Assembly (NCBI RefSeq): GCF_006345805.1
Contig: NC_042999.1
Span: 76,756,001 to 76,820,000, forward strand
DNA length: 64,000 bases
From: Octopus sinensis
Lineage: Eukaryota
Direction of reading: 5' to 3'
Shown here: piece after piece, positions 1,183 through 58,970 of the stretch
How the letters are laid out: each line of letters starts with the position of its first letter
How positions within the stretch are numbered: position 1 is the stretch's first letter
Position numbers and translations under genes: made by a program
Notes under the pieces: generated by a model
What the model was told of the DNA's origin: nothing
The model's database searches: none
Seen by the model: the letters and a program-made list of their open reading frames with translations, nothing else

Positions 1183-1638
1183 CTAAACAGTTTAGAGTTT
1201 GCTACGGATTTTAAATTGATAAATATTTATTTGCCATGATAACAGACGTTTCTTAGTTTGAGTTGTGAAGGATTTCAAAGAATTGTTTATTAGCAGGCTC
1301 CAAAAATAGTAGCCAAATCTTCCTCGTTTCACATTACCATTTTCAAGCAGAAAGGATGTATCGTATAATGTTTATGAAAGAATGGCTGAAAGGTCATAGC
1401 TGGGACGTTTTGGGCCATAAATTTGCTCAGTCGCAGCTGAACAACAAGAATAATTCCTACCAGCGAGAATAACTACTACCAGTAAATATAACAACTACTA
1501 CTGCTGCTACTGCTGCTGCTACTGCTGCTGCTGCTACAACTGTTTTTACTACTTCGGTTTGTGCTCGACTGGGAACTGAAATCTAAACCCATTGCCCACA
1601 ATCCCCAATCATTAAAAAAAGAAAAACAGTTTAAAACA

Positions 1639-1745
1639 TTGTAAGGTATATTTGCCATCTCAATATGGCTAACCACTAAAGGTGGGTGTTACTGTAGCTT
1701 GTAGCCCCAGGAGAACATCTCCTCCAGCTGGCTTTAGGCACACTT
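1639..1745 (-). mobile_element. Diverged fragment of the 352-bp hammerhead repeat family, flanked by a 16-bp direct repeat
   Basis: GTATATTTGCCATCTCAATATGGCTAACC...CCTCCAGCTGGC aligns with 55624-55722. AAAACAGTTTAAAACA occurs at 1623-1638 and 1746-1761. Confidence 0.8.
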
Positions 1746-16712: not shown

Positions 16713-16798
16713 GAGGTTGGAGATGGGAAGGATGACTGCCCTTTGCAAATACTGATAGGGCACAGAAAGTGTGTCAATAGCCAGCTGGAGGAGATGTT
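16713..16798 (+). mobile_element. Diverged fragment of the 352-bp hammerhead repeat family
   Basis: GGGAAGGATGACTGCCCTTTGCAAATACTGATAGGGCACAGAAAGTGTGTCAATAGCCAGCTGGAGGAG aligns with about 56142-56210; lies near a (TA)n tract. Confidence 0.8.
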
Positions 16799-55579: not shown

Positions 55580-55622
<43 letters not shown>

Positions 55623-55782
55623 CGTATATTTGCCATTTCAATATGGCTACCCCTAAGGGTGGATGCTACTGTAGTTTTTAGCCCCAGGAGGACACACTCC
55701 TCCAGCTGGCCATAGACGCACTTTCTGTGTCCTGTCAGTATTTGCAAAGGGAAGTCATCCTTCCCGTCTTCAACTTATGATA

Positions 55783-55827
55783 CACACGGACTCGAGTTTC
55801 GAGGTATTGACCTCTCGTCAGCGTGTG
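55783..55827 (-). ncRNA. Type I hammerhead ribozyme (copy 1)
   Basis: Reverse complement reads CACACG-CUGACGA-GAGGU-CAAU-ACCUC-GAAA-CUCGAG-UC-CGUGUG; predicted cleavage between 55789 and 55788. Confidence 0.9.
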
Positions 55828-56079
55828 ACAATCATAGTTGTCGCCGAGAATTAGATTTCCTTCACAAATACTTATACTTTTTCCAGCGTCCACTGTCGCT
55901 GATATTGAAAAAGTGAAATCAAACAATGATAAATATCAAAGTGAGTTATATACAGTAGCGGTAACACATCGTGACGTATATTTGCCATTTCAATATGGCT
56001 ACCCCTAAGGGTGGATGCTATTGGAAAAAGTATAAATATTTGTGAAGGAAATCTAATTCTCGGCGACAACTATGATTGT

Positions 56080-56124
56080 CACACGCTGACGAGAGGTCAA
56101 TACCTCGAAACTCGAGTCCGTGTG
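56080..56124 (+). ncRNA. Type I hammerhead ribozyme (copy 2)
   Basis: Stem I CACACG/CGUGUG, core CUGACGA 56086-56092, stem II GAGGU/ACCUC with CAAU loop, GAAA 56107-56110, palindromic stem III ACUCGAGU, GUC triplet 56116-56118. Confidence 0.92.
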
Positions 56125-56431
56125 TATCATAAGTTGAAGACGGGAAGGATGACTTCCCTTTGCAAATTCTGACAGGACACAGAAAGTGTGTCTATGGCCA
56201 GCTGGAGGAGTGTGTCCTCCTGGGGCTAAAAACTACAGTAGCATCCACCCTTAGGGGTAGCCATATTGAAATGGCAAATATACGTCACGATGTGTTACCG
56301 CTACTGTATATAACTCACTTTGATATTTATCATTGTTTGATTTCACTTTTTCAATATCAGCGACAGTGGACGCTGGAAAAAGTATAAGTATTTGTGAAGG
56401 AAATCTAATTCTCGGCGACAACTATGATTGT

Positions 56432-56476
56432 CATACGCTGACGAGAGGTCAATACCTCGAAACTCGAGTCCGTGTG
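56432..56476 (+). ncRNA. Type I hammerhead ribozyme (copy 3)
   Basis: Same as copy 2 shifted by 352 nt. Stem I reads CAUACG/CGUGUG (C>U retains pairing as a U-G wobble). Predicted cleavage after 56470. Confidence 0.9.
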
Positions 56477-56689
56477 TATCATAAGTTGAAGACGGGAAGG
56501 ATGACTTCCCTTTGCAAATACTGACAGGACACAGAAAGTGTGTCTATGGCCAGCTGGAGGAGTGTGTCCTCCTGGGGCTAAAAACTACAGTAGCATCCAC
56601 CCTTAGGGGTAGCCATATTGAAATGGCAAATATACGTCACGATGTGTTACCGCTACTGTATATAACTCACTTTGATATTTATCATTGTT

Positions 56690-56906
<217 letters not shown>

Positions 56907-57376: not shown

Positions 57377-58724
57377 TTTTTGCTGTTTTTAACATTAATA
57401 ACTAACTTCCACAATATGTGTGCGCGCGCGCACACACACACACACACAAACTTCCATAGTTTCGAGCAGCAGGAAATATCTAACACAAATAATTGTAGAT
57501 AACAATAATCACACTCATGCAAATGCATATATATACCCTTAAAAATAAAAAAGGCAGACTGACAGCAGAAGTAGGAATAACAGGAACACCAAAGAGATTG
57601 CGATCAATATTAAAAAATTCCGATGCAAAGCTTTATGATTTAAACGACATAGAAACATTGTATACTTTCGAACTAGAAAGGAAACTTGTATGAGGTAGGT
57701 CACCAAATTTGAAACTACAGTCAAATATCCGTCATAACATACATAATATAGCTCTTGATACACAACATATGAAATGAAGGATGGATGGTCACAGCTGAAA
57801 AATATTTGCTCAAAATCTGCCGGATTAGAGTTCACCACAGCTTTCGAATCAACGAAGAAACGATTATATATGGTAGCTTGTACTGCTGGAAATAGTTGTC
57901 AAATCTCCCTCAAATCACATCTTTAATTCTTATATTGGATAATGTAATCCTAGATTCACTATGCCTGAGAAAAGTTAAAGGGTCAACGAATTGATGATGG
58001 GTCTAACCGATCAATGCTGGTCAGCGGCCATACATCCAACGCAATGAGTTTTCCACACAGATATTCTACTCCTTAATACGCCAAAAAGAAAAATTATTGT
58101 GGAAGTTGGTCTTCAACCAAACAATAAACACCTCAGTTCACTACATTATGATGAACTACATAAAGGTGCTGGGTGGCGGTTATGTATAATGATTCTAAGG
58201 AATTACATTTTATGGATTAGTTTCCCATCTGTTATCTTTCGCCAGTCTACATAAATTTGGGCACTGGAAAAACGGACGAATTTTTGTCCAGTAAGTTATA
58301 TATTCTTCGCCCCTGGATTACTGAGGTGGCAGAAACAATAGAACCTCACCCTAAATAAATGTCTAGTAGCGTTTATTTGCGATTTTCTTTGTTCTGAGTT
58401 CAAAATCCACTATAATCAATTCTTCTCTCCATTTCTTCGAGATACATCGTATAATTACCGGTAATACATCGCCGTATACGCTGAAGACTATGTACAGCCA
58501 CAAAAATTAGATTCGCTTACGATTACGTCTGATCTCCCGCTACAACCAGCCATGAGCAACATTTCATCTTTGTAGGTATTTACATTACAGTGGATTGTGC
58601 CGTTAAAAGTTGAGAACGCTCTTCCTGATAATATTGTGTCATCGAGAATAAAATGTAAACCACTTAAGTTCACACAATCATCAGCAACAATTTTCTACTT
58701 CACATGAAAACCATTTGTTTTCAT

Positions 58725-58970
58725 CAGTTAATCGCTACCAAGAAATGGTTGATAGCTACCAAAAAATAGTTAATTGCTACCGAGAAATAATTTAGTGTTA
58801 ACAAGAAGTAGTTAATTGCTGCCAAGAAATAGCTTATTGCTGTCGGAAAATAGTTGATTGCTAACAAGAAATGGTTATTTGCAACAGTTAATATAGTTAT
58901 TTCTATCAACAATTGGTAAATCGCTACCAAGAGATGATTAGTTACTACTCAGAATAGTTCATTGCTTCTA
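58725..58970. repeat. Degenerate 21-bp minisatellite, about 11 units
   Basis: Consensus close to TAGTTAATTGCTACCAAGAAA. Confidence 0.8.

What the first reader, a model, noticed from the sequence alone, without database searches (positions are those of the whole stretch)
55619..56689. Young retrozyme-like element: 352-bp non-coding tandem units, each with an intact type I hammerhead ribozyme
Seen: three near-identical copies of CACACG-CTGACGA-GAGGT-CAAT-ACCTC-GAAA-CTCGAG-TC-CGTGTG with every catalytic-core nucleotide intact and three helices, in a 352-bp repeat with no ORF. The two plus-strand GUC sites (after 56118 and 56470) are exactly one unit apart. Established: tandem units of a few hundred bp with one type I hammerhead each define non-LTR retrozymes of other metazoans (e.g. 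newt satellite 2, Schistosoma SM-alpha, mussel and coral retrozymes), which are processed to monomeric and circular RNA. Inference: read-through transcription would release a 352-nt monomer (56119-56470) that can circularise and be retrotransposed in trans. I do not know of a described cephalopod family with this sequence, but I cannot search.
Basis: partly seen in the sequence, partly recalled or inferred. Interest (0 to 1): 0.95.

Follow-up and report, generated by a model that had tools for sequence, protein, structure and literature searches.

The report
Penelope-mobilised hammerhead retrozyme family
This is one copy of a young, scattered family of small non-coding repeats carrying a self-cutting RNA, and the shape of its insertions shows it is pasted into the genome by a Penelope-type retrotransposon, probably by repeated copying of one RNA template.

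Summary
The three type I hammerheads and the 352-bp period are real, but the locus is not a plain tandem. An inverted arm (55619-56020, minus strand) is joined head-to-head to a direct arm (56022-56689) inside a (TA)n run. The exact 36-nt ribozyme core occurs 614 times in the genome; copies are about 1% from the majority sequence, and older sister subfamilies (68-91% identical) keep a 347-358-bp unit. Arms end at two fixed sites 45-49 nt apart (A, B). Of 44 two-armed young insertions, 38 pair A with B, none pair like with like, and 6 have an irregular end. Both arms share one haplotype (29 of 29). This is the tail, inversion and (TA)n signature of Penelope-like elements (PLEs), so the family is a non-LTR retrozyme mobilised in trans by a PLE. 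The class and the PLE link are already published. What I did not find in the papers read is this integration anatomy for a retrozyme. A circular template is favoured (110 of 121 arms read through the cleavage site; rare variants fixed in all units) but not proven. Cleavage, circular RNA and the partner PLE are not shown.

The parts
55582..55618 (.). Left (TA)n flank, half of the target microsatellite
   Evidence: TRF, AT x18.5
55619..56020 (-). Inverted arm: unit positions u121-352 then u1-170 (u1 = 56119). Its 3' end at 55619 is the short end, site A
   Evidence: locus L001, 99.3% to the unit
55783..55827 (-). Type I hammerhead, minus-strand copy; predicted cut after 55789
   Evidence: (RF00163, 32.2 bits)
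56020..56024 (.). Head-to-head junction of the two arms; probably a 3-nt microhomology with one later substitution at 56021 (inferred)
56022..56689 (+). Direct arm, 1.9 units: u256-352, u1-352, u1-219. Its 3' end at 56689 is the long end, site B
56080..56124 (+). Type I hammerhead 1: 6-bp helix I extended by a distal stem (about 56067-56136), 5-bp helix II, 2-bp helix III inside an 8-nt palindrome; predicted cut after 56118
56119..56470 (+). One cleavage-to-cleavage 352-nt unit, non-coding and strongly self-paired (-114.2 kcal/mol, z -4.7)
56432..56476 (+). Type I hammerhead 2 (C to T at 56434 gives a U-G pair in helix I); predicted cut after 56470
   Evidence: 28.5 bits
56641..56689 (+). Tail: the 49 nt between site A (u170) and site B (u219), present at this end and absent at the other
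56689..56903 (.). Right (TA)n flank
   Evidence: TA x107.5

Best explanation
A non-autonomous, non-coding retroelement (non-LTR retrozyme) whose 352/353-nt RNA unit carries a type I hammerhead and is inserted by a Penelope-like element's RT/GIY-YIG protein acting in trans. SHOWN in the DNA: dispersal, youth, (TA)n targets, two fixed 3' ends, head-to-head arms that pair one short with one long end, and one haplotype per insertion. INFERRED from the Poseidon biochemistry (PMC11167929): the protein, probably a dimer, nicks both strands of (TA)n, and each nick primes reverse transcription inside the RNA, one at site A (u170) and one at site B (u215-219). The two cDNAs run for part of a unit to about seven units and are then joined at their ends, or one is lost, leaving a single arm. 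INFERRED, about 0.55-0.6: the template is one ribozyme-released, host-ligated monomer circle copied round and round, which explains read-through of the cleavage site and identical units. The palindromic helix III suggests cleavage mainly as a double hammerhead in multimeric transcripts, which would spare the monomer circle (established for other metazoan hammerheads, PMC4209133; not tested here). The partner PLE is unidentified. A young Neptune-like family (here PLE-B) shows the same long-plus-short end rule in 3 of 3 cases.
For: 614 exact copies of the 36-nt core, control 0. Mean divergence from the majority base 1.1% in 25 loci. 120 of 123 A/B ends are followed by a TA run. Two-armed young insertions: 38 AB, 0 AA, 0 BB, 6 with one irregular end, of 44 in 82 loci. 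Older subfamilies: 20 AB, 0 AA, 0 BB, 8 irregular, of 28 in 59 loci. Coordinate lists of end patterns (first 100 A ends; 60 distinct B ends from the first 100 rows; partly the same loci): 24 AB, 0 AA, 0 BB outward pairs. Both arms share the subfamily haplotype in 29 of 29 testable pairs (32 examined), against 21% of 901 cross-locus pairs. 110 of 121 arms cross the cleavage junction and 94 exceed one unit. 15 of 76 multi-unit loci carry a rare variant in every unit. Helices I-III are kept across subfamilies, with both-side changes in helix II. Tail, inverted 5'-truncated copy and (TA)n bias are described PLE features (PMC8557442; PMC3846280). The tail equals the stretch between two internal RT start sites, and both target strands are nicked and extended (PMC11167929). 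Young PLEs with long open RT/GIY-YIG frames exist in the genome.
Against: No nucleotide similarity between the unit and any PLE family sampled; the only hits were separate sister copies sitting in (TA)n. No run on record as RNA holds it. Some arrays are not homogeneous: 13 single-locus variants lie in several but not all units, some with a two-unit period, which a monomer circle alone does not explain. Shared single-unit variants fall on the same lap in 16 of 24 pairs (8.8 expected), or 9 of 16 after filtering (5.8 expected), though mostly in different haplotypes. 5' ends are only weakly enriched at the cleavage site (5 of 121 at u1-4, 1.4 expected). The tail (45-49 nt) is longer than the 30-40 bp described for PLEs. 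In Poseidon the ribozyme is dispensable for insertion in vitro, and 8 of 9 Xenopus retrozyme dimers did not cleave. The assembly is indel-rich in these repeats.
Confidence: 0.8

Rival explanations
1. Same PLE-driven insertion, but the template is an uncleaved linear multimer transcribed from a tandem source copy. The hammerhead is a passenger or acts at another step.
For: Unprocessed RNA is the main substrate for Poseidon in vitro. Internal heterogeneity in some arrays. Same-lap excess of shared single-unit variants before filtering. The active fold is not favoured in secondary-structure models.
Against: Rare variants are fixed in every unit at 15 of 76 loci, up to 7 of 7 units, which would need many separately homogenised masters. 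Same-lap sharing is mostly between different haplotypes. The unit stays 347-358 bp across subfamilies 72-89% identical to the unit (12 of 15 period rows; the other three are 281-303 bp). The hammerhead helices are conserved. Two runs hold a 383-nt contig lying wholly on one unit.
Confidence: 0.3
2. The unit is only the pseudo-LTR of an autonomous PLE that I did not find (for example Hydra or Naiad clade), and these are truncated copies.
For: All PLE end features are present. Only 150 of 5029 GIY-YIG candidates were scored. Hydra- and Naiad-clade proteins were not searched. Two insertions join PLE coding sequence directly (L194, L154).
Against: Units join head-to-tail at 352/353 bp with no intervening frame in the young loci. 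No flank shared by the family leads into an RT frame. The two joined cases belong to different PLE families and break inside the frame. The hammerhead listed for Hydra-1_Obim is a different sequence.
Confidence: 0.07
3. The inverted arm arises by snap-back self-priming or by repair of one cDNA, not by two target-primed events.
For: Self-priming has been proposed for Penelope inversions (PMC3846280). Short inverted pieces occur at some junctions (L012, L154, L194). It would also give one haplotype per insertion.
Against: It does not predict that the second arm ends at the other fixed site in 58 of 58 regular cases. The arms usually break at unrelated unit positions. 9 of 32 junctions overlap by 4 nt or more, against 2% by chance (BLAST-based, may be inflated).
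Confidence: 0.1
4. Satellite DNA amplified locally by unequal crossing-over.
For: Adjacent units in a few arrays share variants, as after local duplication (L182, L005, L026).
Against: Hundreds of dispersed short insertions with fixed 3' ends, variable 5' ends and (TA)n flanks; the longest arm seen is 2504 bp.
Confidence: 0.03

Closest known systems
Metazoan non-LTR retrozymes (coral, mussel, axolotl; Cervera and de la Pena 2020, PMC7229834; passages and Discussion read, supplement unreadable)
   Same: Non-coding tandem unit of a few hundred bp (mussel about 350-390), low GC, one canonical type I hammerhead per unit, self-paired RNA; PLEs proposed as mobilisers.
   Different: Cleavage and circles were shown there, not here. 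The main text has no occurrence of 'inverted', 'microsatellite' or 'cephalopod'. Here the copies show fixed internal 3' ends, inverted arms and (TA)n targeting.
Vertebrate non-LTR retrozymes as PLE derivatives (Li, Clavereau, Pollet 2026, bioRxiv 10.64898/2026.07.22.740005; parts 1-3 of 5 read, through the Discussion)
   Same: Same conclusion: retrozymes are non-autonomous PLE derivatives.
   Different: Their evidence is co-occurrence and pLTR similarity in Xenopus. They sampled no mollusc, describe no ends, tails or inversions, and say the mechanism remains to be elucidated. Here no pLTR similarity was found, but the integration signature was.
Penelope-like elements: Poseidon PAc of Anolis (PMC11167929, parts 1-2 of 4 read); Neptune, Hydra and Naiad clades (PMC8557442, passages, sections 11 and 15, supplement rows)
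   Same: Two internal start sites bounding a tail, tail often at one end only, inverted 5'-truncated arm, partial tandems, (TA)n bias, hammerhead upstream of the start sites.
   Different: No RT/GIY-YIG frame; the whole unit is pLTR-sized; tail 45-49 nt. The A+B pairing is strict here, while PAc in vitro showed no strand difference in start site.
Non-autonomous Chlamys elements such as MRC1 (PMC8557442, passage)
   Same: Non-coding PLE-mobilised elements with multicopy head-to-tail insertions.
   Different: Green algal, mostly without canonical hammerheads, and similar to their autonomous partners at the 3' end.

Membership tests
Non-LTR retrozyme | Canonical type I hammerhead in each unit | tested here: met
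   (28.5-32.2 bits, under the gathering score of 34 but E at most 1.5e-4)
Non-LTR retrozyme | Tandem non-coding unit of 150-450 bp with low GC | tested here: met
   352/353 bp, 42% GC, longest ATG frame 38 codons
Non-LTR retrozyme | Many genomic copies as monomers to multimers | tested here: met
   614 exact cores; arms up to 2504 bp
Non-LTR retrozyme | Self-cleavage | not testable with these tools
   Only folding energies
Non-LTR retrozyme | Expressed as monomeric linear and circular RNA | tested here: inconclusive
   No run on record as RNA; two 383-nt single-unit contigs in runs guessed to be RNA, which tandem DNA could also give
Non-LTR retrozyme | No PBS or PPT | not tested
   No dedicated search; only the absence of a tRNA gene was checked
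PLE-mobilised non-autonomous element | Two fixed 3' ends bounding an optional tail | tested here: met
   u169-174 and u212-220
PLE-mobilised non-autonomous element | Inverted 5'-truncated arm and partial tandems | tested here: met
   44 of 85 young insertions are two-armed
PLE-mobilised non-autonomous element | (TA)n or AT-rich target | tested here: met
   120 of 123 ends
PLE-mobilised non-autonomous element | Sequence similarity to the pLTR of an autonomous PLE in the same genome | tested here: inconclusive
   None in the families sampled; Hydra and Naiad clades and most GIY-YIG candidates were not examined
Autonomous Penelope-like element | RT plus GIY-YIG open frame | tested here: not met
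Plant LTR retrozyme | Type III hammerhead in LTRs flanking a unique centre | tested here: not met
   Type I topology and tandem or inverted arms

The most novel reading that the evidence does not exclude
Each two-armed insertion records double rolling-circle, target-primed reverse transcription. A dimeric PLE protein holds one ribozyme-made RNA circle, primes the two nicked strands at two different fixed sites (always one A and one B), and copies the circle in both arms. The family would then be a protein-free circular RNA lineage that has kept a unit of about 352 nt through several waves of PLE-driven spread without resembling any sampled host PLE, and a minimal substrate for resolving how PLE tails and inversions form.
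Probability: 0.45. Interest if true: 0.72.

Novelty: new member of a known kind. Interest (0 to 1): 0.52.

Why it matters
Which enzyme integrates animal retrozymes, and whether the circle is the template, are stated as open in PMC7229834 and in the 2026 preprint. How PLE tails and inversions form is stated as open in PMC8557442. This family gives genome-scale footprints on both: fixed internal start sites, a strict short-plus-long end pairing, and one haplotype per insertion. It also supplies a 352-nt defined RNA and young candidate enzymes with long open frames in the same genome, so the question becomes directly testable in vitro. The class itself is not new.

Tried and rejected
1) Rfam at gathering thresholds: no hit; the miRNA hits reflect the inverted repeat and TA runs. 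2) A sister copy (88%) next to a PLE-B frame in L067 looked like a pLTR, but 0 of 29 other PLE-B loci have it, so it is a chance neighbour in (TA)n. The copy in L057 (71%) is likewise a separate insertion between TA runs. 3) PLE-A, -B and -C loci and the four other GIY-YIG loci fetched show no nucleotide match to the unit. 4) PLE-E looked like the partner because of the joined insertion L194/L270 and a similar-looking end. The predicted short end was found 0 times, and PLE-E's two-armed insertions carry the same end on both arms (17 pairs among 100 listed ends), so end anatomy does not support it. PLE fragments lie near several insertions anyway. 5) The open frame downstream of the ribozyme is broken by subfamily indels: not coding. 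6) A clear pile-up of 5' ends at the cleavage site was not found once the query-edge artefact was removed. 7) No RNA holder listed; this is no evidence on expression. 8) The consensus fold of six monomers was out of register and is used only for local hairpins. 9) PLE-A end mapping was uninformative. 10) Metagenome contigs: 0 matches to the core. 11) Earlier findings of this scan: none. 12) Literature: searches found no cephalopod retrozyme description. The 2026 Octopus vulgaris repeat annotation has no occurrence of 'ribozyme' or 'retrozyme' in its main text (passages). The giant squid paper counts 235 Hammerhead_1 hits without describing them (passage). Dfam, Repbase and that annotation's repeat library could not be searched, the supplement of PMC7229834 could not be read, and bioRxiv supplements are closed, so the family may already be catalogued there.

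Full report
OBSERVATION. The window holds three type I hammerheads: + 56080-56124, + 56432-56476 and - 55783-55827. Rfam RF00163 gives 32.2, 28.5 and 32.2 bits, under the gathering score of 34. A simple descriptor finds 3 in the window and none in 100 shuffles. The + strand cut sites are 352 nt apart. I number the unit u1-u352 from 56119. It is non-coding, 42% GC and folds far better than shuffles (z -4.7). The locus is a 402-bp minus-strand arm (55619-56020) joined head-to-head to a 668-bp plus-strand arm (56022-56689), with (TA)n on both sides. The genome is 2.72 Gb in 13,516 contigs; that this fits an octopus is my recollection.

FAMILY. A DNA search of the own genome had 1616 candidates, of which 40 were scored; the full-length matches listed were 95-100% identical. 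The exact 36-nt core occurs 614 times, control 0. A looser pattern for variant cores gives 382 more. In 25 loci the mean distance to the majority base is 1.1%, with 0.75% within and 1.56% between loci. Older sisters at 68-91% keep a period of 347-358 bp in 12 of 15 period rows; three rows gave 281-303 bp. In 29 hammerheads (28 picked from the 44 extracted, leaving out truncated and near-identical copies, plus the window's), helix I pairs in 97.7% of cells, helix II in 82% with both-side changes at 3 of 5 pairs, and helix III in 100%, invariant. The core and 3' strand were part of the selection pattern, so their invariance is not independent. The 8-nt helix III word is a perfect palindrome in 20 of 44 older copies, and another 14 differ by one G for A. 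Near-identical sequence is held by runs labelled as seven organisms in 10 studies; only four runs were laid.

INSERTION ANATOMY. I analysed 82 young loci: those with an exact core among the first 100 listed places (contig C1 and the first 185 Mb of C2) plus the best hits, duplicates removed. L172, a direct duplication, was left out of the arm and variant counts. 3' ends fall at u169-174 (site A) or u212-220 (site B), mid-unit and far from the cut site; 120 of 123 are followed by a TA run. An exact A-end-plus-TA pattern occurs 496 times genome-wide. 5' ends vary and are enriched at u121-170 (38 of 121; 17 expected), a conserved stem region just upstream of site A. Of 85 insertions, 41 have one orientation (33 A, 7 B, 1 other) and 44 are two-armed: 38 A+B, no A+A, no B+B, and 6 with an irregular end. 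Older subfamilies give 20 A+B, no like pairs and 8 irregular of 28. The coordinate lists give 24 A+B and no like pairs (partly the same loci). The window copy is a typical A+B case.

WHAT MAKES THIS ANATOMY. An optional tail at one end, an inverted 5'-truncated copy, partial tandems and (TA)n bias are described for PLEs (PMC8557442; PMC3846280). For the anole Poseidon protein, both target strands are nicked at AT-rich DNA and extended, reverse transcription starts at two internal RNA sites, and the tail is the stretch between them (PMC11167929). So A and B are best read as internal RT start sites. The strict pairing is not generic in this genome: PLE-E has the same end on both arms (17 pairs in 100 listed ends). 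PLE-B has two ends about 30 nt apart and pairs long with short in 3 of 3 two-armed copies checked.

TEMPLATE. 110 of 121 arms cross the cut site, 94 exceed one unit and 9 exceed three, so a cleaved linear monomer copied once is excluded as the usual template. Both arms carry the same subfamily haplotype in 29 of 29 testable pairs, against 21% across loci. Variants seen in four or more loci are fixed across all units in 98 of 112 locus cases; 8 of the 14 exceptions are at u139, next to a subfamily indel. 15 of 76 multi-unit loci have a rare variant in every unit. This favours one template copied repeatedly: a circle, or an equivalent end-to-end jump. Against a simple monomer circle: some arrays show variants in adjacent units or with a two-unit period (M159, L194, L182, L005), which needs dimer circles, multimers or later local duplication. 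Shared single-unit variants show a same-lap excess that shrinks after filtering and mostly crosses haplotypes. In two runs guessed to be RNA (X5, X6), one 383-nt contig lies wholly on the unit, with the major 353-nt haplotype. 383 = 353 + 30 is what a closed loop gives at word length 31 (my inference), but tandem DNA gives the same.

RIBOZYME. Helix III is 2 bp inside a palindrome, the metazoan form that works better as a dimer (PMC4209133). In 56022-56689 the double-hammerhead fold lies 9.5 kcal/mol above the ensemble, and two monomeric folds 13.4 above. With the antisense arm included, one hammerhead is fully sequestered. These are secondary-structure estimates without tertiary contacts. This copy is therefore probably a poor source; single-orientation arrays are the likelier masters (inference).

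PARTNER. The genome has thousands of GIY-YIG candidates (5029, 150 scored) and several young families with long RT/GIY-YIG frames. I call PLE-A, -B and -E Neptune-like from the cysteine motif before GIY-YIG, not from a tree. None of the loci compared shares sequence with the unit. One insertion (L194/L270) is a TA-flanked cassette of about 3 kb of young PLE-E lacking its own 3' end, fused to 3.7 units ending at B. It may be a template switch or a deletion, and PLE-E's end anatomy does not match. Hydra and Naiad clades, listed for Octopus with (TA)n preference, were not searched. The partner stays open, with PLE-B a weak lead.

NOVELTY. Non-LTR retrozymes are known (PMC7229834) and their PLE origin has been argued (10.64898/2026.07.22.740005). 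My eight literature searches found no cephalopod family and no description of tails, inversions or paired ends in retrozymes. Subscription papers, repeat databases and two supplements were out of reach. Verdict: new member of a known kind with an unusually clear mechanistic footprint. PLE mobilisation 0.8; circular template about 0.55-0.6; interest 0.52.

Noticed in passing
window 1632-1745 (-) and 16716-16793 (+): Two old fragments of the same family (84% over 115 bp, 90% over 78 bp) elsewhere in the window.
   Followed up: partly
L269:1318-1400 (-), L067:2520-2740 (-), L073: The Neptune-like PLEs of this genome carry variant-core hammerheads with palindromic helix III near their 3' ends: U3-A8 in PLE-E and PLE-G, U4C in PLE-B.
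   Followed up: partly
L062:1674-5377, L067:3242-6318, L270:2068-4001: PLE-A, -B and -E have a second, overlapping upstream open frame (479 aa in PLE-A, no convincing Pfam hit) before the RT/GIY-YIG frame, whereas canonical PLEs are described with a single frame.
   Followed up: no
G000 coordinates; L094/L272, L099/L273, L101/L274: PLE families in one genome differ in end rule: PLE-E uses one end on both arms, PLE-B pairs a long and a short end (3 of 3). This natural contrast could reveal what sets the tail.
   Followed up: partly
L194:1-2587 with L270; L154:1-1704: Two insertions fuse the retrozyme directly to PLE coding sequence through a short inverted piece: possible chimeric cDNAs.
   Followed up: partly
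M159 (G000:C1:105632955-105638104), L194: Variants with a two-unit period in long arrays could reflect dimer circles or later duplication.
   Followed up: no
runs X5, X6, X16-X20: Runs labelled as six organisms other than the commonest holder carry near-identical sequence, and two carry the major haplotype: very close species, label variants or horizontal spread.
   Followed up: partly
window 56194-56204: A short motif resembling a tRNA A box (recalled consensus) is conserved in sister copies; I saw no B box by eye and ARAGORN found no tRNA. How the unit is transcribed is unknown.
   Followed up: no
window 58705-58966: A degenerate 21-bp minisatellite (11.5 copies, 63-bp higher order), unrelated to the finding.
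   Followed up: no
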